A stretch of 64,000 nucleotides of DNA from Sphaerodactylus townsendi (lineage: Eukaryota), in contig NC_059430.1 in NCBI RefSeq assembly GCF_021028975.2, positions 57,226,001-57,290,000 on the forward strand. The letters run 5' to 3'. Shown here in pieces: positions 9,820 to 37,400 of the stretch (position 1 is its first letter; each line of letters starts with the position of its first letter). The translations under genes and the position numbers were made by a program. The notes under the pieces were generated by a model. The model was not told where the DNA came from. It saw nothing but the letters and a program-made list of their open reading frames with translations, and did no database searches.

Positions 9820-10940
9820 TAAGAACATAAGAACATAAGAACAAGCCAGCTGGATCAGACCAGAGTCCATCTAGTCCAGCTCTCTGCTACTCACAATGGC
9901 CCACCAGGTGCCTTTGGGAGCTCACATGCAGGATGTGAGAGCAATGGCCTTCTGCAGCTTTTGCTCCCGAGCACCTGGACTGTTAAGGCATTTGCAATCT
10001 CAGATCAAAGAGGATCAAGATTGGTAACTATAAATCGACTTCTCCTCCATAAATCTATCCAAGCCCATTTTAAAGCTATCCAGGTTAGTGGCCATCACCA
10101 CCTCCTGTGGCAGCATATTCCAAACACCAATCTGCGTTGCGGGGAAGAAGTGTTTCCCGCCTTTTTTTATTAGTCCTAATTCTTCCCCAGGCATTTTCAG
10201 TGCTTATACCCCTGAGGTTTCCTAGTATTGTGGGAGAAAGAGAGAAAATTTTATCCTCTGTCAACTTGCATTTTTCCTATCCCATACGCATAATTTTGCT
10301 TGAAGACTTCAATCACTTATCCCCCTCAGCCTCCTCCTCCCATTCCAAACTAAAGGGGAGTCCCTGGCAGCTGCAGCGCTCTCTCCTCATAGGGAGGAAG
10401 AAGTGCTCCAGTCCGCTCAATCATCCCTCGTTGCCCTTCTGCTGCACTTTTTCCTATCTCTTGATATATCCTTTTGAGATGTAAGGAGACCAGGAACTGG
10501 ACGCTGAAAATTACTCTCAAAGTCGCGGTCGCTTCCCACCTGCTTTTATATAAGGAGACATGACAATCTTTGCAGTTTTATTCTCAATTCCTTTCCTAAT
10601 GATCCCCAGCATAGAGTTTGCCTTTTTCACAGCTGCCATGCATTGAGTTGACATTCCCATGGAACTATCAACTAAAGGCAGCCCCAAAATCCACTTTCCC
10701 TGGTCACTGTGACTGCATTTAGCACCCTGACCCCTGTAAGCGTGTATGTGACCGAAGTTTGGTTTTGCTTCACTATGTGCATCACTTTACATTTTGCTAC
10801 ATTGAACTGCATTTGCCATTTCTTAGCCCACTCACCTAATTTATCAAGGTCCGCTTGGAGCTCTTCGCAATTTTTTGCGGTTCTCACCACCCTACATAAT
10901 TTGGTATCATCTGCAAACTTGCCCACCACACTACCCACCC
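9820..10940 (-). mobile_element. 5'-truncated CR1 LINE, (ATGTTCTT)n-tail family
   Basis: (aagaacat)n tail at 9820, 3'UTR stem-loop, KFADDTKL RT motif (ORF 10672-10974). Collinear with the copy at 19957-21105. Confidence 0.95.
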
Positions 10941-10959
10941 CCACACTACCCACCCCCAT

Positions 10960-11950
10960 GCTAACCTCTGGCAAGGTGAGGTTTGCCAGAGGTTCACATT
11001 TTTTGACATGAGCCCAAAGCCTTTTGTCCTATCTCACTAATTGGCTGAGGCAAATAATGGCTGTGAATCACCACGGGCCGCAGTTGCCGCTTGGGGTGGG
11101 CAGGGCAAGGTATGATTCCGACCTCAGTGAGAGCAGAAATGGATGAGTGGCCATGCTGAATCAGGGCAGATGATGATGGGTTGGCTGCCTGCTGTCCACA
11201 TCAGAGAAGAGGGGGGCTAGCCCAAGCCTTTAAAGGGCCAAGACCTCCTTTGTGCCAGCCATGTATTTGGGGCGGCTAACGATTTTCCCACCCACCTCTC
11301 CCTATTTTGCGAGATGTTGTTAATGCATGCTACCTTGTTATAGCCATCGGCAGTTTTGGTGCATGGGTATTGATCCGGAAGGGCCAGGAGAGGGGAGCTA
11401 GGGAGCTACCCCTTCCCCTCGGGAATGGCAGACAGTGGCAAGGGACAACAGCCCTGCCAAACAGGGTGTCTGGGGAGCACCTCTTACTGTGAGTCCATGT
11501 CTTCCTGGAATTGGGTTTGGCATGCCACACTGGTGTGGCTTTGATTCTGTTCTTTGAAACTGGTTTTGTTGGTCTTGCAACACTGTGTTCTGAGTTTGAG
11601 TTCATTGGTGATGGGTTTACAGTTTATGGTGGATTCTCACATTGTACATTGGCTTGGTTTCTCAAGTTGTGCATTGTCTCAGCTTCTCAGGTTTAAATGT
11701 GTTGGACTTGCAACAGCATTCCTATTCTATTTAGCTTGGATGATTTTCTGGTTTGACATTAACTTGGATTCTCAGGTCATATGTTTGTTGAGTTAGGTTT
11801 GTCACATTGTCCCACACGTTTGTTGGGATTTCCTGTTTCTGCATTAGTTCTTTGGGTTGTTTGGTTTTGTCTCCTTTGAGAAACTTTTGTCCAGTGGCTG
11901 CTTTGCTTGTTCTTGTGTCTTTGTTTATTCTTTGCCCAGGCTGCACAACA
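10960..11950 (+). mobile_element. Possible solo terminal repeat or non-autonomous remnant of a Ngaro/DIRS-like or LTR element
   Basis: GC-rich front with a tttaaa box (11229) and cccacccacctctcccta. ggcagttttgg and a GT-rich end (tgtgtctttgtttatt...caaca) resemble the 3' segment of the Ngaro element at 28.8-29.5 kb. No ORF. Confidence 0.35.
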
Positions 11951-19956: not shown

Positions 19957-21105
19957 ATAAGAACATAAGAACATAAGAACATAAGAACAAGCCAGCTGGA
20001 TCAGACCAAAGTCCATCTAGTCCAGCTCTCTGCTACTCGCAGTGGCCCACCAGGTGCCTTTGGGAGCTCACATGTAGGATGTGAACGCAATGGCCTTCTG
20101 CGGCTGTTGCTCCCAATCACCTGGTCTGTTAAGGCATTTGCAATCTCAGATCAAAGAGGATCAAGATTGGTAGCCACAAATCGACTTCTCCATAAATCTA
20201 TCCAAGCCCCTTTTAAAGCTATCCAGGTTAGTGGCCATCACCACCTCCTGTGGCAGCATATTCCAAACACCAATCACACGTTGCGTGAAGAAGTGTTTCC
20301 TTTTATTAGTCCTAATTCTTCCCCCCAGCATTTTCAATGAATCCCCCCTGGTTCTAGTATTGTGAGAAAGAGAGAAAAATTTCTCTCTGTCAACATTTTC
20401 TACCCCATGCATAATTTTGTAGACTTCAATCATATCCCCCCTCAGCCGTCTCCTCTCCAAACTAAAGAGTCCCAAACGCTGCAGCCTCTCCTCATAGGGA
20501 AGGTGCTCCAGTCCCTCAATCATCCTTGTTGCCCTTCTCTGCACTTTTTCTATCTCCTCAATATCCTTTTTGAGATGCGGCGACCAGAACTGGACACAGT
20601 ACTCCAAGTGCGGTCGCACCACTGCTTTATATAAGGGCATGACAATCTTTGCAGTTTTATTATCAATTCCTTTTCTAATGATCCCCAGCATAGAGTTTGC
20701 CTTTTTTACAGCTGCCATGCATTGAGTTGACATTCCCATGGATCTATCAACTAAGACGCCTAAATCCCTTTCCTGGTCTGTGACTGATAGCACTGACCCC
20801 TGTAGCGTGTATGTGAAGTTTGGTTTTTTTGCCCCTATGTGCATCACTTTACATTTTGCTACATTGAACTGCATTTGCCATTTCTGAGCCCACTCACCTA
20901 ATTTATCAAGGTCCGCTTGGAGCTCTTCGCAATCCTTTGTGGTTCTCACCACCCTACATAATTTGGTATCATCTGCAAACTTGGCCACCACGCTACCCAC
21001 CCCTACTTCCAGGTCATTTATGAATAGGTTAAAGAGCACTGGTCCCAAAACGGATCCTTGGGGGACACCACTCCCGACATCTCTCCATTGTGAGAACTTC
21101 CCATT
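19957..21105 (-). mobile_element. Young 5'-truncated CR1 LINE with open RT C-terminal frame
   Basis: ORF 20161-21165 contains GVPQGSVLGPVLFNLFINDL, KFADDTKL, RPHLEYCVQFWSP and RRRLRGD. The 3'UTR has the stem agctgga...tccagct and an (ATGTTCTT)n tail. Confidence 0.97.
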
Positions 21106-22935
21106 GAACATTTTACAAAGGTTGTTTATGCACTTCTCCTGTTGAATGAACATTAACCACAACATTGATGTAGAAATATAATTTTAGTTTATTGTACAGT
21201 TCTTCAACCTATTTTTAACAAAATATGGCAGCTAAATTTAATAGACCTAGCAGAACAAATTTTGACATATACCTTTATAATCAATAAGTATATTGGTTCT
21301 ATAATACACACTTGGAGAAGCTAACAAAAATGCTTTTGTATGGTGCTGGTCCAGGCTTAGACTGTAAGATTTGAGAAAATTTTTCATATGGAAAGGAAAG
21401 CCACTTTTTCTCCCTGTTGCATAATATTAGAAGCCAGTGGGTTCACAATGAAGCCAACAGATTGTAGATTCAGGACAGATAAAAGGAATAATTAGCATGT
21501 GGAATGTTAAGATTACTAGTTTAGATGACTTCAGAAAGGACCTTCAGAAAGGACCTTGTCAAGTACAGAGATGATTGGTCTCTTGGGGACTATTAGCCAT
21601 GAAACATGTTTATTCAGGGGCAGTGCAACTCAAAATAGCAGCTGATAGGAGAGGACAGCAACGATGAAAGCTGTGTCCTTTGTTCTCTTTGAGGGGCACA
21701 TCTTGCTGGCCACTGCAGGAGGCAGGATGCTGGACTGGATGAACTTTCGTTTTCAAGTTGCCAGCCTAATCAGACCATCAGTTATCAGGTAGACTTATGT
21801 CACCAACATGGAGAGACAGCATGTAATTAGTTTGATTCATGCCAACTGATTATGTCACCAATTGGGAACAGCTTTTGATAATGTTCACATATATCCTGTA
21901 ACTCTTGAAGCAGCAATCAAGATAAGTCTGGAAAAGGCTGATCATTATCGAAATGGAAGCTCTTACCTACATCCTACATCCTCTTACCTACATTATCGAA
22001 ATGGAAGCTACATCTAGGCCAAGGTCACAACACTGACCCCCTTCTGAGTTGACTAACCAGTGGGTAAACTGCTTATGTAATTGTTTCCATGCTAGTACAA
22101 CTCACAGGGCAGTAGGTTTAGATTTAGAAGACTTTTCCCAGACTTTGTGAATAGTATCTTGAGTGTATGTCAAAATCCAAATACAAAATGTGAATTGCTT
22201 TGTTGTTCACTGATTTGGTCCTCTGCCTTCCCTGTTAGCCATTTGAACTGGTAATGCATATTGTTATTTGTAGTTTCTTTTATTTTTAAAATTTCTGGTA
22301 GTATTACCATAATTAAGTTCGCATGAGAATTTCAATTTCAATTTCTCTTCAGAGAAATGATTTTATGTCAAAAACTGTATGAAACAGAATCATACTGAGA
22401 AAACTTCAAAGAAGAGATTTCTTTGTTCAATTTAGCTTCAAAAAGACCCTTTCATTCTTTTGTGTTTTTAACTATTTTTCAAACTTCCACTGTAATGAAT
22501 AGAACAGGCTTGTGCATTTACCTGGCATAGCGGAATGAGGATGAAGTATTCCTGTTTGACATGGAAGACCTTAGATAGGTTTGGACAGATAATTTTTGTG
22601 AGTACTGCATTGTGTTCAAATGGATACTGTGTTCCAAATGCAATCCTCGGAGTTTCCTTCATATGCTCATCTGCGTATACTTAGAATAGGCAATACTTTG
22701 TACTGAATGTTATGAATCTTTATGTTATAGACCTCATGGATATTTCTGTAGGCCAGAAACGGAGCTGGCCTCGTGTCTCAGCTAAACATGCCAAATTAGT
22801 CCAGAGACCCAAACAAGAATGGCCTTGAAGAGGAATAAGAAACAAAGGAGTATCACAATAATATGTCTGTTCAAGGACTAGAAACTGTCCCACCCTTATC
22901 AAGAGATAATATGACTTGGGAAGCATATGTAAGAA

Positions 22936-27150: not shown

Positions 27151-28155
27151 CTACACACAAACACAGAGAGAGTCTTTTAAGATACCACAATGACACACCT
27201 ATTTTTCCTACGCAACTGAACATTAATTAATAGCTTTTAGTATAATGCATAGTGTTTCACAATGGCAGGCTCATCATTTGTGTAGATAAGCCTGGAGATT
27301 CTGGTTATCTTCAACCATGATGTAAAGCAAGGTACCAATATCTCAACACAATAATTATGTTAATGAGCTTTATTTCCCTGGCCTTGGCTTGTCCCACCCC
27401 CAGGCTTCCTCTAACTGCTGCTCCTATCCTAGAAGTTAAAGTAAGAAAAGGTTAAATAAATGAGTGCTTTATTTCCTTTGTTGATATGAGTTTATTCATG
27501 CAACCCTGTTAAGATCTGTGGTAGCCACATTTTGTTGGTCAGCCAGTACTGATTTTCTGCCACACCATCATGAGCTGAACTCAGCACATATTTAGCAGTC
27601 AATCAGAGCTGCTGATCTGGTGAGGCAGGTACTTCTCCACTAGAGGATATACTTTTTCTCAAGGTGTCCTTGTTTTTGATAACCATTATTAAATATTTCT
27701 TGTCTGTAAACTATCACATCTGTCACCACTCAAAAATGTAATAACCTGTACCAATGATACCAGAACTTTCCCAGGCAAAACTGCAAGAAAGCTATTGGCA
27801 ATATCTATAATGATAAGAATTGTAGCAAGCAGATATCATGACAGAACCTGAGTAATGGAACAGATCCACATTGTGTTAAAGAGCTGAGATGGGGACAGTC
27901 ATTTTACTTGTGACATGGCAACTTCTTCATATTTTGAATAACTCTTTTTTCCTGGTACTGCCTTCAGTTCCTTTTCCTGAACCAGGGAGTACCTGAAACA
28001 ACCATGCTTCAAACAGTAAATATAATTCAAAAAATCGGTTTAATTTTCATGCTTTAGCAAAAGATGAATCAGGTTTCACTCAAATAGATTGATGTCAATG
28101 CCATAATCTTCAGAAAACACTGGAATGCTGAAAGAAAACTCTGAATAGTAATGAT

Positions 28156-28360
28156 GGCCGTTTCCGCTTGCTATTCGCATGGCAGCGGCTCCAAGCCGCT
28201 GTTTTCCGAAAACCTCGCTTCCCAAGCGAGGTCGGAAAACGCCGGCTTCGTGCCAGTCGAGCAGAGCGAGGGCAGCGTGGCTGCAAAGCAGCCGCACCCC
28301 CTGTGCGAATGGCTCCCTGGGGACTGTGTTTTTGCCGTCCTCAGGGCGCCATATTCCGAT
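28156..28360. mobile_element. Fragment of the CpG-rich Harbinger-like MITE
   Basis: ggccgtttccgc terminus followed by sequence homologous to 61260-61450. Confidence 0.7.
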
Positions 28361-28455: not shown

Positions 28456-28672
28456 CAGAGGCAAAGCTATAAGGGGACGGGGCACTGCACACTAGGCGCA
28501 TGCCTGGGGGGTGGAAAATTGCCCCCTTCCCCCTGCGATGCTGAACTAAAGTAAGTGGGGGTGCAGGGGGGCAGAAGTGTCACGGGGGTGTTGCAGGGGA
28601 GCATGGGGGGCCCGTGGGGGGTGGAAAACACAGAGTTCACCCCGGGTGCAGTTTGGCCCAGCTACGTCTCTA
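28456..28672. mobile_element. hAT MITE
   Basis: TIRs CAGAGGCAAAGCT...AGCTACGTCTCTA; imperfect 8-bp TSD gttaacta/gttaacag. Left end is homologous to the element starting at 57432. Confidence 0.75.
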
Positions 28673-28832
28673 GTTAACAGCCGTTCTCAGGTCTTGTAAA
28701 CTGAGACTAGTGGCCTTCTTTTTTTAGAATTTTTCTGCATTCTCACTTTAAGTGGCTTTTGTGTTATTGCTGCAGATGGTGAGACCTTTCTCCGCTCAAA
28801 TAAAGACACAACAACGACAGGCTGGAAAAGGA

Positions 28833-29049
28833 NNNNNNNNNNNNNNNNNNNNNNNNNNNNNNNNNNNNNNNNNNNNNNNNNNNNNNNNNNNNNNNNNNNN
28901 NNNNNNNNNNNNNNNNNNNNNNNNNNNNNNNNNNNNNNNNNNNNNNNNNNNNNNNNNNNNNNNNNNNNNNNNNNNNNNNNNNNNNNNNNNNNNNNNNNNN
29001 NNNNNNNNNNNNNNNNNNNNNNNNNNNNNNNNNNNNNNNNNNNNNNNNN
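28833..29049. other. Assembly gap
   Basis: Run of N. Confidence 1.
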
Positions 29050-29529
29050 CGAAACTATATATACAAGGAAGCTGGTGACAAAGCGGGTTGCAGCACATCC
29101 GTCCCAATCTCCATTGGGAACTGTTGGGGAAGCGGGAAGGCCCCAGGAGATATCACTCCGACTGCACCCTTCGCCATGCTTTCGCTGAGGCGGGCACCCG
29201 GCTAAGCCTGCGTGGCAGCCTGGCCAGCCAGCGCCTCCTCTCCCGTGCTTGCTGGGGTAGTCTCCGGGGCCGGCCCCAAGCCCATGACCGCCCTGCTCCT
29301 GAGGCCCGACCCGCCCCCACTCCCTGGGGTGTTGGGCAGACCCGACCTGCCAGCCTGGCCAGCCTGCTGCAGCCTTCCACCCCTGCCCCTTCCACAGGGC
29401 TGGGGCTGGGAGAACCTGCCGGAAGGCTCGTTTTTCTCCCCAGATGTGCGACTCCCGTTGCCAAAACCTGCCACGAGCTGTCCCTCTTGCAGCTCCCGCC
29501 CAAGCCTCTCAAGCCTGAGCCTGTCTGGT

Positions 29530-30100
29530 CCTCACCAACCGGAGGAGGGCATATCGAACGGACTGCAGCCAGAGGTCCAATCCCCATTTTGACAGGTGGA
29601 CACCGTATAGTTCCTTGATGTCCCGTGAAATTTCTGGGTGGTCCGCTACCGCTCCCCCAAGGGTAGAGCACCACCTTGGCGGCCGCCTTGTTTACCTTCC
29701 GGCGAGCCCTGTCCACACCCATGGGGTCAACCGCCCCCTTCCACAGTACCCGCTGTAGAAGGTCGGACCACACCAGGACCATGCCCGATCGGTGCTTTGC
29801 CAAGCTCCTCAGAATAGTGATCACAGCCCACCTCAGTTTGAGGCCCGACCTGGCCGGGAGATCCTCCTCCCCCAGGTGGATAACTAAGATGTCTGGGGTG
29901 GCCAGCTGAAAAATGTATTCGATCAATTTGCACTCCAGCTCGTCCCACTTCATGTCACCCTGGCCCAACTAGGTAATTCTCACGTGTGCTGCAAGTCCAA
30001 GGTGTCGGCCCCATTCAGATGAGCAGGCGTAGTCTCCCGCTTGATTGACGATACTATGCCCCACGACCCACACCTGTCGGACAACAGTCTGTGGCGTCCT
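29530..30100 (-). pseudogene. SGNH/GDSL-like hydrolase ORF of the Ngaro element (disrupted)
   Basis: Block I VWVVGHSIV; in-frame TAG at 29969-71; block II GQGDMKW; block III DILVIHLGEEDL; VWSDLLQR..W; after a frameshift YGVHLSKWGLDLWL (block V, Asp lost). Confidence 0.82.
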
Positions 30101-30120
30101 TGGAAGCACTGTGAAGCAAA

Positions 30121-31038
30121 TCAACAGGATAAGTGAGGGCGGATGTAGGCCCGAAAGGCGTCCGAATGCCACCTGCCCAAGGTGCGGATCTCGTCGTGGG
30201 CCCTGCCCTCCTGTGCCGCAGTTGTGGCAGCCCCTATCCTGAAGGAGTGCAGGCCGAACTCAGTGGCTGGTAACCCAGCCCGGGCCAGGCAAGCCCTCAA
30301 CACTGCCAGCATCTGGAACCTGGTGAGGGGGGAACCATCCTCATGCACCAGCAGCATCCCGCCTTGCCGCAGCCTGTGGCGGAGCCAAGTGGTTAGTGAG
30401 GCAAGGGGGCAGGTCACATCGCCCGGCAAGACCAGCATCGTGACCCAGGCACCGTGGCCCTCCTGATCGGTTTTGGAATGGGCAAGCCATGCATAGACCC
30501 TATCCCCGGACAGGACCAGGTGCTGTCTCTGTAGCACCGTACTCGATAGCCGCTCCCTGGTGGGGGCCACCAGCTCCCCCGGCCTGAAGGCCCCATGATG
30601 CACCAGGTGGAAAGCGGCTGCAAAGAGCAAGCGCTCGTAACGTGAAGCGCACACCTGACGCACCTCCCCCGTGACTGCCTGTAGCACCTCCCTAGTGATG
30701 GGGTGCCTTAAGTCCCTCTGACTGGGTCCCGCCTGCCGCCAGCCTGCCACGAGCCGGCGGACCACAAATGACTTTGTCACGTCCGGGAAGCCAGAGAGCC
30801 TGCAATAGAATGCAATCCCCGCTAGCTGGACCCCCATGGACAGTGGGTGCATCCCTCGACCATGGAGGTGGACTAGGTATTTGAGTAGGAGTCCCCTGTC
30901 CACCCCGCTGCAGACCGTGCGCCCTGCCAATGCTGCATAACTCTGGAAGTCGCACACGGCTCTGTCGTATTGTCTACACTTGGCCGGTGCCAACGAATTC
31001 AAAACACCTGTGATGACGGTTCGCTGCCAAGGTTCCAT
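30121..31038 (-). CDS. Tyrosine recombinase (305 aa, open)
   Basis: Catalytic set AFRPGEL (R), HSKTDQ (K), HSFRIGAAT (HxxR), GRW and FRAYIR (Y). Overlaps the end of the RT/RNase H ORF by 40 nt. Confidence 0.95.
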   Translation of the reverse strand: MEPWQRTVITGVLNSLAPAKCRQYDRAVCDFQSYAALAGRTVCSGVDRGLLLKYLVHLHGRGMHPLSMGVQLAGIAFYCRLSGFPDVTKSFVVRRLVAGWRQAGPSQRDLRHPITREVLQAVTGEVRQVCASRYERLLFAAAFHLVHHGAFRPGELVAPTRERLSSTVLQRQHLVLSGDRVYAWLAHSKTDQEGHGAWVTMLVLPGDVTCPLASLTTWLRHRLRQGGMLLVHEDGSPLTRFQMLAVLRACLARAGLPATEFGLHSFRIGAATTAAQEGRAHDEIRTLGRWHSDAFRAYIRPHLSC

Positions 31039-32620
31039 AAGGCCGCCGGCACTGTCGCCGGGAACAGCTCTGCCCCGGGGGCCAGGCGCCTGAAGCGATC
31101 CACCTGCTGGCGAGATACAGCGTCAGCGATTTCATTCTGCAAACCTGGAACAAAGGCAGCTTTAAAGGAGATGTTATAAGTCAAGCAGGTAAGGACAAGA
31201 TTGCGAACCAGCCGCATAACCCGTGCAGATTTGCTAGACTGCCTGTTCACCACACGTACAACCGCCTGGTTATCGCACCAGAAGAGTACCCTCTTGTTCC
31301 ACCAGCAGTCGTGCCAGATGTGCACTGCCACCAAGATGGGAAACAGCTCAAGAAAAGTGAGGTCCCTAGTAATCCCCAGTGCGTGCCAAGCCGTGGGCCA
31401 GAGGCCCCGAGCCCAATGCCCTTGAAAGTATACACCGAAGCCATGGGCCCCTGAGGCGTCAGAATGCACCTGTAGCTCAAGGCCGGGATCCAGAGATGTC
31501 TGCCACAAAGAGATGCCATTAAAGCCATAGAGAAAGGATCGCCAAACCTTCAGGTCCTCTTTCAGTCCCCTTGTGACTCTAACGTAGTGGTTGGGGGACC
31601 TGCAGCCAGACAGTGACCTTGCCAAGCGGGAGCAGAAGGCCCTGCCTGGTGCCACCACCCTGCAGGCGAAATTAAGGTGACCCAGTAAGGATTGCACCAG
31701 CCGCACTCTGCACTTCCATAGGGGCATGATCGACTGGATTAGGTTGGCTAGGGCGAGCAGCTTGTCCCTGGGGAGTGAGGACGTGCCATGGACCATGTCC
31801 AGCTGTATGCCCAAGTAGCTGAGGGCGGGAGTGGGGCCCTCCGTCTTGTTGGGTGCCAAGGGGACCCCTATTTCGGCTGCCAATGCTTGAAAGGCACTCA
31901 GGGCGACCTCGCACTCTCTGGTGCCCTGCCTGCCAATGAACAGGAAATCATCCAAGTAGTGTGTGACCAACCCAGAGGGGACCCTTTGCCTGAAGGCCCA
32001 CTCCAAAAAAGTGCTGAAGGCCTCGAAGGTGGCACAGGCTATGGAGCATCCCATGGGCATTGCCTTGTCCACATACCAGCACCCTTGGAAGTGGATGCCC
32101 AGCAGCTCAAAGTCTAGGGGAGAAATGGGCAGGAGCTGGAAGGCGGACTGGATGTCGCATTTCGCTAGCAATGCGCCTGGGCGAGCACGGCCGAACTGGC
32201 CTGCGTCCAGGGGTGGCATACCGCGTGGAGCAGCTACCTCGGGTCTATGAAATCGTTAAGCTATGAGTAGCCCGGGGATGGGAGAGATGTTGTATCAGGC
32301 GAAATTCCCCCGGGGCCTTTTTTGGCACTACCCCAATGGGGGAGACCCTCAGGTTGGCTAGGGGAGGCTGGCTATAAGGACCTGCGATCCGGCCAGCCCT
32401 CACTTCCTTATCCAGCTTATTGGCTACCACATCGAGGTGCTCCAAGACAGATTTCAGGTTGTTCGCATGGTAGGCCTTCCTGCACCCTCGGTAAAGGATT
32501 CTGAAACCCGATGTAAAGCCATCCCCCAAAAGGCGTGCTGCGCACCTGTCAGGATATAGCCGCAGCCACCCCTGCAACACCCCCAGCTGGACAGGCGTGG
32601 GGGCCAGGGACTGCAGCAAG
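30999..32620 (-). pseudogene. Reverse transcriptase + RNase H (frameshifted near 32200-32280)
   Basis: SPIGVVPKKAPGEFRLIQHLS, LLAKCDIQSAF, MPMGCS and HYLDDFL. RNase H motifs HSDASG, LELFPI, WCDNQAVV and NEIADAVSR. Confidence 0.95.
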
Positions 32621-32729
32621 GCTGGAATTTCAAAGTTTCTGGGGGGCGGTACCACTGCCCTGGCTGCTGGCTTCCTTCTGAGAGGGCCCGGCGCCAGGGA
32701 AGGCAGACCTGCAGGGAGGCTGACCAGCC

Positions 32730-34108
32730 CGATTGTGCAGCCCACCCTGCTGTGATTTCCAGAACAATTGGAGCAAGCGTGCTCGTACTTGCATTTGAGT
32801 CGCTGGCAAGAGTCCCTATTGAACTCCCAGCAAGTCCCCTTCGCCACCCCCCGTCCTTGGTAGCCCCTAGGGAGGCCTGTCGGTGGAAGGGGAGTCCTGG
32901 ACCCCTTTCATGGCCGGCTGGACCACGACCATCCAGGTTTGATCGTGGATGAGGTCCCAGCGGAAGCGGCTCTTATGAGAAGTGTTCTTACGGATAGCCT
33001 CGTCATAGGCTATAGCCGTGAGTTCCCCGGCCAGAGATCAGGCCCGCAGCACATGCGCCATATGGGCCGTCAGGTGCCAGGCCCGTAGGGGGTATGCGGC
33101 CGCTATTAAGGCCAGGTACTCAGTAAAGCCCTGCAACCAGTTACTAAAAGTGCACTTAGCCGCTAACGGGTCCTTCCTCTTCTTGTCAGCTTTGCCCCCG
33201 GACAATCCGTGCTCACCCTCCCGCCGCAGGCATTTGAAAACGTCTACGTAATACCCGTCTAGGGCCCATTCCCGAAGTTTTCTGGGAAGGTGTGACCAGG
33301 GAGGGTTCCCATTGTCATCGGGGGACGAGCCGGTAGATGGCGCCTCCAACCCCCGAAGGCGCCTGCGCTTAGCTAGCCAGGGGGGGAGAGCGGGCACCTT
33401 TTCCCCTTGGTACCAAAACTCCCCGCTAGCCTGCATTTCGTCGTCCTCGGTCGACTCACCCGATGAAGAAGAGCTGGGCGACCGTCTGGAGGACTGGGAG
33501 TGCCACGACGACCGCTTCTTCCGTCAGCCCTCTCGCTCCGAGGGCCCCACGGACACGTCAACCGACGTGGAAGCGCTCACGGGAGGGGACAACTGGAGTT
33601 CCTGTGCCAGCTGTTCCGACAGGCCCACTCCCGCCGCGCCAGCGGCCACTGGCGTGGATGGCTCCGGGTCCCCTGATCCGCCAGGGGTCCCGAGGCTCCC
33701 GGACGACCCACCGAGGGCTTGGGAGAGGTGGAGCAGCGTGTCCGCCAAATTCCACACCAGGCTGGAGTCGGGCGCTGGATCCCCGGCAGACACGGAGGCT
33801 GCGGAGACAGTGCTAGGGCCCTGCGGTTGTTCGGCCATCGGAGCTGCTTCCCCTGGTAAGGAGGGCTGCCCCACCACATGCGCCGCCCTGCCCCTACCTA
33901 TTGGGGATAAGCCCAGGGCCACGGCCGTAGCCATTCGCGCGGCCGCGCCGATGCGTCCAACCACAGGACCCTCCCCCATGGCATCAGGCCTCGTCTGGGC
34001 TCGAACCCTGTTAAGAAGGGCCCTCACCCTGCCCGAAGGTGCCTGCTCTTCCCGGGAGGGCTCCTTACTTTTTGCACGCTTTGGAGGCATTGTGCCCCAA
34101 GGCTCCAT
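32730..34108 (-). pseudogene. Gag-like ORF1 with C-terminal CCCH+CCHC zinc finger
   Basis: ORFs 33524-34108 and 33038-33436 are in one frame, each ended by TGA. The frame continues AIAYDEAIRK...RWD..DQTW. After a frameshift it reads CWEFNRDSCQRLKCKYEHACSNCSGNHSRVGC. Confidence 0.85.
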
Positions 34109-34359
34109 CCCAGTCTGCGGCCGAGAGGTTGGGAAGAGGAAGGGAGGGATAGAGGAGAATTAGGTTAGGAAAAGCGAGGCTTGGAGAGAAAATTAGACTG
34201 AGCAAGAAAAGGGGGTTGAGCAAGAAAGCAGAAAGGTAGATCAGGTAGGAGCTAGAGACGGCCGTGACTGGGCTCCTTCCAGGCCTTACGCTCGACTCAG
34301 TCCGCACACCACGCCTTTCTGAGTCTCGCCGCCGGGAAGGGCGAGATCTGGGTGAGGCG

Positions 34360-34410
34360 CTCCTTATATATCTCGGCTCCTCCCGCCTTTACCGGCCGGG
34401 AGCCAATCAA
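34360..34410 (-). promoter_or_regulatory. Pol II promoter of the Ngaro element (CCAAT, GC box, TATA)
   Basis: Minus strand gATTGGctcccggccggtaaaGGCGGGAGGagccgagaTATATAAgg, ~260 nt upstream of the gag ATG. Confidence 0.7.
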
Positions 34411-37400
34411 TGCACCCCATTTCTGTAGCATGCCGCCAAGCCATGCTTGCAACCTATTTTTGCTCCTTGGCTCACCCCGGCAGCAATGGCTGCACCCGGT
34501 TATTCAGTTGCTGCTTTTTTTTGTTGGCACTTTTCCACACATGTTTTTCTTCATCTAGTGGGAATACATTATCACATCAGTTTATGTCTGGCAAATCTCT
34601 CTGCAGATTTAAATTGCAAGTTTTTATACCAGATATAACATCAAATCAATCAGTAGAGGGAGCAAAACACATATGGAACAGACTGTCCTCCCCTTGCCCT
34701 GAAAACAGGAACTTAGAAGCAAGGAAAAACAGAATGTGGAAAAGCCCTAAAACTTCTCTTCTCACAAGAATGAAAGTCTTCCCAACTAAACAGTGTGTTT
34801 GCAAACACCAAATACAACTTCATTATCAGTATTCCATTTTTTTAAAGGATGTGTTTTCTGTAGTTGGAAGTGATGCCAGTAAAAAGTACCATCAAGCAGG
34901 GAAAGAGAAATGCCAAGGGGAAAAAAACTTAAAAGATCAGGTTTGTAGCTTAGAGGCTGATCCTGGACCTCAGTGCTTGATGTTGGGAGGAGCCTAGTGT
35001 AACCCATCTCAAGTTTCCTTAAACAGGACATAAGCAAAATAAGAGTCAATAATTCCAAGCTCTTTACCACCTTATCAACTCTTTCCTCCTCTCCCTATGA
35101 ATGATTGCCTGATCAAGTTAGTCCTAAAAGTAACTGGATATAGTTTTCAGCAAACCTAACTCTACTTTCCAAGACATTTAAAAATCTGGCTCTCTAAGGC
35201 TTGAATAATAACAGTTTTATGGCATGTTTCATTTTATGTAAAATATCCATTGAGATCTCCCTAGGGAAAAAAAAACACTATGCCTTCCAAATGTGAGTGA
35301 TCAACAATGAAGGATTGAACTTGTGAATTTGCTTTAACAGTTTGTTTGATTTGTACTTTTGCTTCCAAGATAAACTTCATTTTGATAGCATTTAATAGGC
35401 AAATGTTTGCAAAATTACAGCACACTGTTATGGTGGAACTCATTACAATAATTTCTAAGCATCCAATTTTCCAAAATGAGATTGGTATAAAATTTATGGC
35501 TTTTTTGTTACATCATTTTATGAAATAGTTAGGTCATCTGGAGGCCATGAAACATTTGCTAAGCTATGAATTTCAAAACACAAATTAATATTAAACAAAA
35601 TGTAATAAAATTGCATAAAATATAACTTGAATTCAGTTTAAAGTTAGAGAATGAGTCTGCATAGATGAGTCTTGCTTTATATTATCATATACATAGCAAA
35701 TTATCCAAAAACTTTATTGTAGTCCTTAGAGACTCTCAAGTGCATGTTAACAAAAGAGATACATGGTGTGTTGGCGTTTATGCAACTCTTGCATCTAGAA
35801 ACAACTAAAGAAAATTATCACTGTAATGAATCATATAAGAATACTTATATCTATTACAATATATTTTTCTTTTCTATGAAATGTTAGGAATTGTACCATT
35901 CCTGTTAATGAGTTGGAAAATGTTGTATGTTCAAATCTCTTTTTTTTCCTTTTGGCAAAGCATCATGCTATTTGGATTATGAAAGGAAAAACCTCAATAT
36001 ACATCCATTGCAAACAGAATCAGAGAGTGCATTGGTAATGTTCATAAAAATATATTTCTTTGCCCAAAACATTTTTCTGCCATATGCCCCAGGCACCCCC
36101 TTCCAGCAAAGACATGAGACAACAGCATTGGGTTTAATTAGTTTATGTAAATAATTAATTATGCAGATCTACATCATATTATTAAATACACTAACAATTT
36201 AAATGAGCAGGCTATGCTAGGCAGCCTAACAAGGCTCCCTTTGTTTGGCAGACCCTCCCTGACTCCAAACTCAACCTGTGTCTTCTGCTGACCTTGCTTA
36301 TCATCCTCTGTGCACAAAGTACTAAAAGGTGCCTCAGCTCAGCCCCTTTCTCTGATATGCTATATAGACACTACCAAATTCAGAGAGATATTGCTCAGCA
36401 ACTGGGGCACTCTTTCCTAGCAACACCGTGCCATACAATCAATGATGCACTGTTTTAGATACACATTTCAACATTGCTTATACCTCAGGGTGCTTGACAA
36501 TGATCCCTACCTACTGTGATCAACCCACCCTATCCCTGCCACACAAGGCTCTTCATACTCCTGCTGACTATAACATCCTGCTGGCCCTGGTGCAGACCTG
36601 CCAAAACTACAAGTCATTTTCATCCAGACGCAGGGCAAGAATATCAGCATGTTGTGATTGACTGCACAGTAAAATAGAGGTTTAAAAGTGCAAGTCAGTC
36701 AGTGGAACAAGGTGCTAGCACAACAGAACAGGAAAGTGCTCTGATTGGGTAAGCTGACCTGTGCTTTGATTGGTGGAGCAAAACCAGTTGACTTAGAGAG
36801 GAGAGGGAAAATTTTGGGAACTTTTGGATTTGTGTGTGTTAAACTACTCTGAGGGAATTTTAGTTAAGGAGTGAATCTGACTTGAAATATATTGAGAGTC
36901 AGTATGTGCTGAAAGCAGAAAATATTCCTAATTTTCTTGCCTGCAAGTTTCATTTCAGTGGTCAAGGCTGAAGGTGGAATAACAGTAAGATTTTCCACAG
37001 GTGACCATAAATAAAAGGGAAGGGACTATATCTTCTGGGTGTAGAAGAAGAAATCCTAAGCCAGTTAGAACAGGAAGTATGCACACAGGTGGATTCCCAA
37101 GCTGGCATATTAGTGTTCTGCCATAGTTACCTCAGGAGGGAGCCAGTAACATCTAACTGTACCATCTTAAAGAAAAGAACCTCTCATAACATATAAGCAA
37201 CTGAAGAAACATAAAAAGCTTGATTAAGAACTGTGCCTGTGCCAAAACTGATGTTTGTATATAGTTAATTCGTGTCTGATCTCCATTCACTGAAATATCT
37301 CCTGATCCTACCTAGTTTGTTGTTGTTTCTTCTTGTTGCCTTGGAAATGGAGATTTTCCATAGGGAGAAGACTCCCTTCACTTTTCTAGAGTTCATCAGG

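What the first reader, a model, noticed from the sequence alone, without database searches (positions are those of the whole stretch)
28790..34420. Near-complete Ngaro YR-retrotransposon with a four-ORF cassette
Seen: promoter, gag with CCCH+CCHC finger, RT (YLDD)-RNase H, an overlapping intact tyrosine recombinase and a fourth ORF. Known: this layout without a methyltransferase-like domain defines Ngaro elements, which integrate circular intermediates via YR. Inference: high residual CpG and few lesions suggest a fairly recent family, possibly uncatalogued in this lineage.
Basis: partly seen in the sequence, partly recalled or inferred. Interest (0 to 1): 0.7.

Follow-up and report, generated by a model that had tools for sequence, protein, structure and literature searches.

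The report
Ngaro retrotransposon with eroded esterase
This is a broken copy of an abundant lizard-type jumping gene of a known kind, whose family keeps its extra esterase-like gene under selection even where key catalytic residues are gone, so that protein likely works as a membrane or RNA-particle anchor rather than an enzyme.

Summary
The Ngaro call holds. The element runs 34520 to 28767 (minus strand): promoter, gag, RT-RNase H, tyrosine recombinase (YR), ORF4. Sister copies show A1-ORFs-B1-A2-B2 split repeats (16 of 48), there is no methyltransferase, and the RT tree separates it 100/100 from same-genome DIRS1-like elements; nearest relatives are squamate. ORF4 is an SGNH esterase fold whose best PDB sequence hit is the ZfL2-1 ORF1p esterase; this four-ORF layout is published for Xenopus. 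This copy is dead: gag, pol and ORF4 are broken, only YR is open. A conserved phase-1 donor in gag likely splices to ORF4 and YR; this scan noted that before on other DNA, including this genome, and I have no RNA proof. Not found in the scan notes or papers I searched: the family has lost the oxyanion Asn (0 of 47 copies; 91 of 95 homologs keep it), and the majority lineage replaced the catalytic His by Arg (133 versus 58 motif matches), yet its ORF4 stays under purifying selection (dN/dS 0.14-0.23). The hydrolase likely has a non-catalytic role. Known kind, modest new variant.

The parts
28767..34520 (-). Ngaro-like YR retrotransposon copy, A-ORFs-B form as assembled, non-autonomous
   Evidence: 3' flank junction also read in Logan contigs of 3 of 4 runs, with under 31 letters on the element side
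34309..34520 (-). Repeat A (A1), about 210 bp, holds the promoter; repeated as A2 in sister copies
34364..34407 (-). CCAAT box (34403-34407) and TATA box (34364-34370), conserved across copies
   Evidence: sequence; alignment; function inferred
32630..34090 (-). gag-like ORF1, broken by 2 stops and frame breaks
33454..33459 (-). Predicted phase-1 splice donor after the basic/Ser-rich tract of gag
   Evidence: donor motif in 24 of 27 copies, phase; 118 exact motif matches genome-wide
32737..32832 (-). CCCH + CCHC zinc finger at the gag C-terminus
   Evidence: PF22628 weak, E 0.085
30999..32907 (-). pol: RT (YLDD at 31958) and RNase H, no methyltransferase; frame broken at 32272-32196
31104..31130 (-). 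Predicted phase-1 tandem acceptor (31107/31104) for YR, inside the RNase H coding end
   Evidence: YAG in 27 of 27, branch-like motif in 26; confounded by RNase H coding
30121..31122 (-). Tyrosine recombinase, open frame of 333 codons, R-K-H-R-W-Y present
30109..30132 (-). Predicted phase-1 acceptor for ORF4
   Evidence: YAG in 25 of 27, branch-like motif in 24
29509..30108 (-). ORF4, SGNH-fold esterase-like domain; Glu at the oxyanion Asn position as in the whole family; broken in this copy
28767..29480 (-). Repeat B (about 520 bp in sister copies, with AATAAA and a GT-rich downstream tract); here interrupted by N at 28833-29049

Best explanation
This is a decayed, non-autonomous copy of an abundant Ngaro-like tyrosine-recombinase retrotransposon family whose SGNH domain has lost catalytic residues yet stays under selection, so it likely serves as a non-catalytic membrane or particle-binding module that is probably made by splicing onto the front of gag. 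Shown: anatomy, split repeats in sister copies, insertion without target duplication at sites sharing AA(T/A) with the B|A junction, SGNH fold, residue losses, dN/dS. Inferred cycle: transcription from the promoter in A1; reverse transcription that uses the internal B1|A2 junction to restore the ends (published model); YR integration by crossover within the shared AA; one phase-1 donor in gag would join the N-terminal 210 residues (ending in a basic, Ser-rich tract) to ORF4 or to YR, neither of which has a conserved ATG ahead of its first conserved motifs. The gagN-SGNH product would resemble ZfL2-1 ORF1p (arginine-rich motif + esterase). How pol is expressed is unresolved.
For: Split repeats: 14 A-BAB-type and 2 A-BABAB of 48 copies. 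RT tree 100/100 apart from 6 same-genome ITR+ICR+MT elements, nested among squamate sequences 97/96; none of the 120 listed RT homologs carries PF05869. Ends: AA follows the terminal GCAGC in 38 of 40 3' ends; 5' ends carry the junction's A-rich core. ORF4: best PDB hit 4C1B, E 8.9e-11; model pLDDT 96, SGNH folds on top. Asn81 in 0 of 47 copies (Glu 43, Asp 2) against 91 of 95 homologs; block II Gly position also changed (90 of 95 homologs Gly); His173 is Arg in 21 of a 23-copy clade; 133 Arg against 58 His motif matches genome-wide. ORF4 dN/dS 0.14-0.23 in 9 Arg-clade pairs, 0.13-0.20 in 6 His-group pairs; RT-RH 0.10 and YR 0.12 between subfamilies. ZfL2-1 active-site mutants lose hydrolysis but still bind liposomes (PMC3905857, passages). 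Splicing: donor and both acceptors are phase 1; 13 of 27 N-terminal extensions of database SGNH models match gag N-termini from three lizard genera; several end in the same basic + Ser tract.
Against: No RNA evidence from this organism. No spliced DNA copy: 0 matches for either junction pattern against 118 unspliced donors. Database models are predictions, and others join SGNH to YR or RT pieces, so predictors also make arbitrary joins. The YR acceptor lies in conserved RNase H codons. The best pol acceptor is phase 2 in intact copies, against a one-leader-three-enzymes scheme. dN/dS pairs share branches and are not independent. No activity was measured; His51 is present in 21 of 23 Arg-clade copies and could form a different active site. 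ORF4 is not strongly basic (K+R 20-24, D+E 19-21), unlike the ZfL2-1 esterase (pI 10.8), which weakens charge-driven membrane binding by this domain alone. The window copy shows no A2-B2, and the N run leaves its true 3' structure open.
Confidence: 0.78

Rival explanations
1. ORF4 is still an enzyme with a rewired site: Ser18 with His51 and Glu81 as a new triad and Arg173 stabilising the oxyanion.
For: Ser18 in 47 of 47 and Asp170 in 44 of 47 copies are kept; His51 in 21 of 23 Arg-clade copies, Glu81 in 22 of 23; purifying selection.
Confidence: 0.12
2. ORF4 and YR are made without splicing (read-through, frameshift, internal or non-ATG starts), and the splice-like motifs are by-products of coding constraint.
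For: 0 spliced DNA copies; YR acceptor overlaps conserved RNase H codons; only 13% of four-fold gag sites are as invariant as the donor T, so that one site is weak evidence.
Against: The ORF4 acceptor has a branch-like motif and pyrimidine tract in 24-25 of 27 copies upstream of the conserved domain; first conserved ATG lies downstream of the catalytic Ser; gagN-SGNH models exist in Rhineura, Hemicordylus and Podarcis, with isoforms of different gag length.
Confidence: 0.22
3. The element is PAT-like rather than Ngaro-like, since both have split direct repeats.
For: No named PAT or Ngaro reference was in the tree.
Against: PAT elements encode a methylase and some Ngaro a hydrolase (PMC7192593, passage); PAT RT is close to DIRS1 (PMC9210276), whereas this RT is 23-27% identical to same-genome DIRS1-like and about 50% to Xenopus MT-less proteins.
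Confidence: 0.03
4. The single-B form (29 of 48 copies, including this one) is an assembly collapse or hides in the N run, rather than real B1 x B2 recombination or a shortened replication product.
For: The window's B holds an N run that no contig bridges; B1 and B2 are tandem-like and often 2-6% apart.
Against: The 26 loci checked hold no N; the same assembly resolves 16 copies with two or three B repeats.
Confidence: 0.25

Closest known systems
Xenopus Ngaro-like DIRS-53_XT / DIRS-54_XT (PMC9210276; part 1 of 5 and passages read)
   Same: Four overlapping ORFs gag, RT/RH, YR, SGNH hydrolase; A1-B1-A2-B2 split repeats (A 236 bp); no MT; Xenopus RT models 48-51% identical.
   Different: Squamate-type host (inferred from relatives); B about 520 bp rather than 152 bp; oxyanion Asn lost family-wide and catalytic His lost in the main lineage; the paper has 0 hits for 'splic' and 'target site'.
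ZfL2-1 ORF1p esterase, PDB 4C1B (PMC3905857, passages read)
   Same: Closest solved sequence to ORF4 (E 8.9e-11); predicted gagN-SGNH fusion would also place a basic tract before the esterase.
   Different: Non-LTR element; active enzyme with S-G-N-D-H intact and pI 10.8; one unspliced ORF.
DIRS1-like elements of the same genome (L027-L034)
   Same: YR retrotransposons with RT-RH and YR.
   Different: Inverted terminal repeats + ICR, MT motifs, long YR frame overlapping pol; RT-RH only 23-27% identical.
Athena-L GDSL derivatives of bdelloid rotifers (PMC5408684, passages read)
   Same: Retroelement SGNH-like ORFs lacking catalytic residues.
   Different: Penelope-like elements; the passages read report no significant departure from neutrality for such extra ORFs, whereas ORF4 here is under purifying selection.

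Membership tests
Ngaro-like superfamily (order DIRS) | gag, RT/RH and YR ORFs, overlapping, no DDE integrase or protease | tested here: met
Ngaro-like superfamily (order DIRS) | Split direct repeats A1-ORFs-B1-A2-B2 in the family | tested here: met
   16 of 48 copies carry internal A2; A1/A2 mismatch 1.0-11.5% in 15 measured
Ngaro-like superfamily (order DIRS) | Split direct repeats in this very copy | tested here: inconclusive
   Only A and one B are visible; N run 28833-29049 inside B is not bridged
Ngaro-like superfamily (order DIRS) | No methyltransferase after RNase H | tested here: met
   pol ends about 35 residues after the ADALSR motif; no PF05869 in copies or 120 listed homologs; MT-type motifs (DLFA, YAFPP; recalled) seen in the DIRS1-like controls
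Ngaro-like superfamily (order DIRS) | SGNH hydrolase ORF after YR (amphibian type) | tested here: met
   PF13472 E 1.5e-4 in L011, below cut-off; 4C1B E 8.9e-11; fold
Ngaro-like superfamily (order DIRS) | RT groups with named Ngaro references | tested here: inconclusive
   Groups with MT-less squamate and Xenopus proteins, away from DIRS1-like; no named DrNgaro1, PAT or VIPER sequence was available
DIRS1-like superfamily | Inverted terminal repeats + ICR and MT domain | tested here: not met
PAT-like superfamily | Split repeats with DIRS1-related RT and methylase | tested here: not met
   No MT; RT far from DIRS1-like; criterion from PMC7192593 and PMC9210276 passages
Catalytically competent SGNH hydrolase | Ser, Gly, Asn, Asp-x-x-His in blocks I, II, III, V (PMC10792757, passages) | tested here: not met
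   Asn 0 of 47; block II Gly position changed; His replaced by Arg in 21 of 47
Catalogued Dfam/Repbase family | Near-identical library entry | not testable with these tools
   No TE library is held

The most novel reading that the evidence does not exclude
Ngaro elements make, by splicing, a second capsid-like protein (gag N-terminus + SGNH domain) built like a LINE ORF1p, and this family is a natural experiment showing the domain is needed as a pseudoenzyme: its most successful lineage spread after losing the oxyanion Asn and the catalytic His while the protein stayed under selection.
Probability: 0.5. Interest if true: 0.65.

Novelty: new variant of a known kind. Interest (0 to 1): 0.45.

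Why it matters
The hydrolase of YR retrotransposons has no proven function (PMC9210276, PMC6681497). If a lineage can lose the catalytic residues and still select for the protein, catalysis is not the essential job, which points to lipid or particle binding and gives matched natural variants (Asn/His, Glu/His, Glu/Arg) to assay. The window copy itself is an ordinary dead insertion.

Tried and rejected
No RNA holder listed for the family; only DNA contigs could be laid, and they neither test splicing nor bridge the N run. Spliced genomic copies: 0 matches with two exact patterns, and all 20 ORF4 loci fetched kept pol upstream. A phase-1 pol acceptor at 32709 suggested was an artefact of this copy's own indels; it is phase 2 in intact copies, so it was dropped. 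A 5' UTR intron ending just before the gag ATG was rejected: that AG is not conserved. An att-like palindrome at the B|A junction is weak: arms are 5-6 bp and imperfect in the Arg lineage, against 11-13 bp typical for YR sites (PMC3212892, passage). PF05869 found nothing in the genome even though MT-type motifs exist in DIRS1-like copies, so that profile is insensitive here. Single-sequence PDB search with ORF4 gave nothing significant. Poulter and Butler 2015 is not held; Goodwin and Poulter 2004 was not read; no supplements were opened, and either may already describe hydrolase residues or splicing. In the RT tree 8 DIRS1-like loci were examined and 6 used (L028 and L034 had no RT frame over 400 residues); 25 of 120 homologs were included. 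L016 gave no ORF4 alignment, so residue counts are of 47.
Full report
Observation. The region 28767-34520 is a GC-rich (57-65%) island in 30-48% GC flanks with CpG o/e 0.57 against 0.23 and 0.17. On the minus strand it holds a CCAAT and TATA promoter, a gag-like ORF with a CCCH+CCHC finger, RT (YLDD) with RNase H, an overlapping YR frame of 333 codons with R-K-H-R-W-Y, and a fourth ORF. Only YR is open. gag has two stops and frame breaks, the start of RT has five frame-breaking indels, and ORF4 has a stop, a frame break and a deletion over block V. By the listing of frames of 150 residues or more, none of the 27 aligned copies has all four frames open.

Family. The 1.81 Gb genome gave 47 DNA matches from 28 of 1776 candidates scored and 150 ORF4 matches from 150 of 2895 candidates scored. 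Of 48 copies examined, 29 are A-ORFs-B like the window copy, 14 carry B1-A2(-B2), 2 carry BABAB and 3 are incomplete. A is about 210 bp and holds the promoter; B is about 520 bp and holds AATAAA in most sister copies shown; a short unique spacer lies between A2 and B2. After the terminal GCAGC, 38 of 40 3' ends continue AA and then mostly T (25) or A (13); 5' ends keep the 5-6 bp A-rich core of the B|A junction, which differs by subfamily. This fits YR crossover within 2-3 shared bases and no target duplication, as proposed for DIRS trinucleotides (PMC7192593, passages); the mechanism is inferred. A1/A2 mismatch is 1.0-5.5% in 13 of 15 copies. The window copy's nearest sampled sister is 11% different, but its private amino-acid changes (2.2 per 100 conserved codons) match copies with 2-4% A1/A2 mismatch, so it is a moderately young insertion from an under-sampled subfamily. 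Whether its own A2-B2 is absent cannot be settled, because the N run in B is not bridged.

Classification. RT-RH homologs are squamate (52-61% for the best) then amphibian (about 50%); none of 120 listed has the Dam domain. Eight YR loci from the same genome proved to have inverted termini and ICR-like repeats and 23-27% RT-RH identity where alignable; six went into a 37-row tree and fell apart 100/100, while the family nested among squamate sequences (97/96) next to Anolis and Eublepharis models. No named Ngaro or PAT reference was available. Split repeats, no MT and a hydrolase ORF match Xenopus DIRS-53_XT (PMC9210276, part 1 of 5 and passages) and the definitions in PMC3783388 (part 1 of 5), PMC6681497 and PMC8547959 (passages). 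The host is probably a squamate (inference from relatives).

ORF4. Open copies hit PF13472 weakly; a 96-sequence profile hits the ZfL2-1 ORF1p esterase 4C1B at E 8.9e-11, far above the rest; the model has pLDDT 96 and matches SGNH structures. 1277 representatives are related at E up to 0.001. Among 95 homologs, Ser 89, Gly 90, Asn 91, Asp 92, His 92 are kept. In 47 family copies Ser is kept in all, the Asn position is Glu 43, Asp 2, Ser 1, gap 1, the block II Gly position is His, Asn, Asp, Arg or Ser, and the catalytic His is Arg in 21 of a 23-copy clade, the two exceptions being explicable by CpG decay. Exact motif counts are 133 Arg and 58 His. ORF4 dN/dS is 0.14-0.23 in nine Arg-clade pairs and 0.13-0.20 in six His-group pairs, all bootstrap intervals below 0.45 (pairs share branches). 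If ORF4 were complemented in trans it should drift, so the Arg lineage's own protein is selected. In ZfL2-1, H282S abolishes hydrolysis, yet active-site mutants still bind liposomes (PMC3905857, passages). I therefore favour a non-catalytic role (about 0.7 for the Arg lineage). Against: the domain is near neutral in charge, and His51/Glu81 could form a rewired site. The distant same-genome element L036 keeps END and DGVH, so the erosion is family-specific. A search of the scan's notes for this and a paper search found nothing on Ngaro; PMC5408684 (passages) notes catalytic-less GDSL ORFs in Athena-L. Searches listed no paper on squamate Ngaro structure (listings only); subscription papers and Repbase Reports are not covered.

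Expression. YR and ORF4 lack a conserved ATG before their conserved parts. A donor at 33459 (24 of 27 copies) is phase 1 in gag, and acceptors at 30109 (25 of 27) and 31107/31104 (27 of 27) are phase 1 in ORF4 and YR. Of 27 N-terminal extensions on database SGNH models, 13 match gag N-termini (Rhineura, Hemicordylus, Podarcis); Podarcis models and, by eye, 7 of 72 unnamed ones end in the same basic + Ser/acidic tract as this donor. Against: no RNA run, no spliced DNA copy, arbitrary joins in other models, and no matching pol acceptor. I put gagN-SGNH splicing at about 0.75 and gagN-YR at about 0.6. I reached the ORF4 splice before the look-up; the scan had noted it on other DNA, in this genome too, along with the shared-AAA ends and the missing second repeats. 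Those notes are not independent evidence; they prompted the YR, pol and spliced-copy tests.

Verdict. A correctly spotted Ngaro element of the published four-ORF type, dead at this locus. The added value is the family-level erosion of the esterase active site under continued selection, which makes the open question of the hydrolase's role testable. New variant of a known kind; interest 0.45.

Noticed in passing
window 34289 and 34216/34198 (minus): A donor-like GTAAGG in the 5' UTR is kept in 24 of 27 copies, with pyrimidine-rich acceptor-like sites at 34216 (19 copies) and 34198 (12): possible short 5' UTR intron.
   Followed up: partly
L022, L023: Two copies carry B-A-B-A-B at the 3' end; none of 48 carries A-B-A at the 5' end, so integration appears to use only one of the junctions.
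   Followed up: partly
L027-L034: Young DIRS1-like families with inverted termini 94-98% identical, ICR and long YR frames coexist in this genome.
   Followed up: partly
L035, L036, L037: More distant, decayed Ngaro-like families (40-70% in pol); L036 keeps the Asn and His of the esterase.
   Followed up: partly
window 28145-28360 and 28470-28670: Two short high-copy repeats beside the 3' end; the first has 23-bp inverted arms (28187-28254) and very high contig depth.
   Followed up: no
window 20164-21183 and 10675-11028 (minus): Two other RT fragments (PF00078 E 5.9e-14 and 1.1e-5), probably LINE remnants; no host protein domain in 55 of 66 long frames scanned.
   Followed up: no
window 28833-29049: 217 N stand where sister copies have about 56 AT-rich bases with the poly(A) signal; insertion, expansion or gap cannot be told.
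   Followed up: partly
P0162, P0163, P0164, P0167, P0169: Long proteins (1309-3112 aa) with 4-6 SGNH stretches related to ORF4: tandem element arrays mis-modelled, or domesticated multi-domain genes.
   Followed up: no
L039:1-2020: A copy whose ORF4 runs into a 64-bp-period tandem array, giving a 2114-codon open frame.
   Followed up: partly
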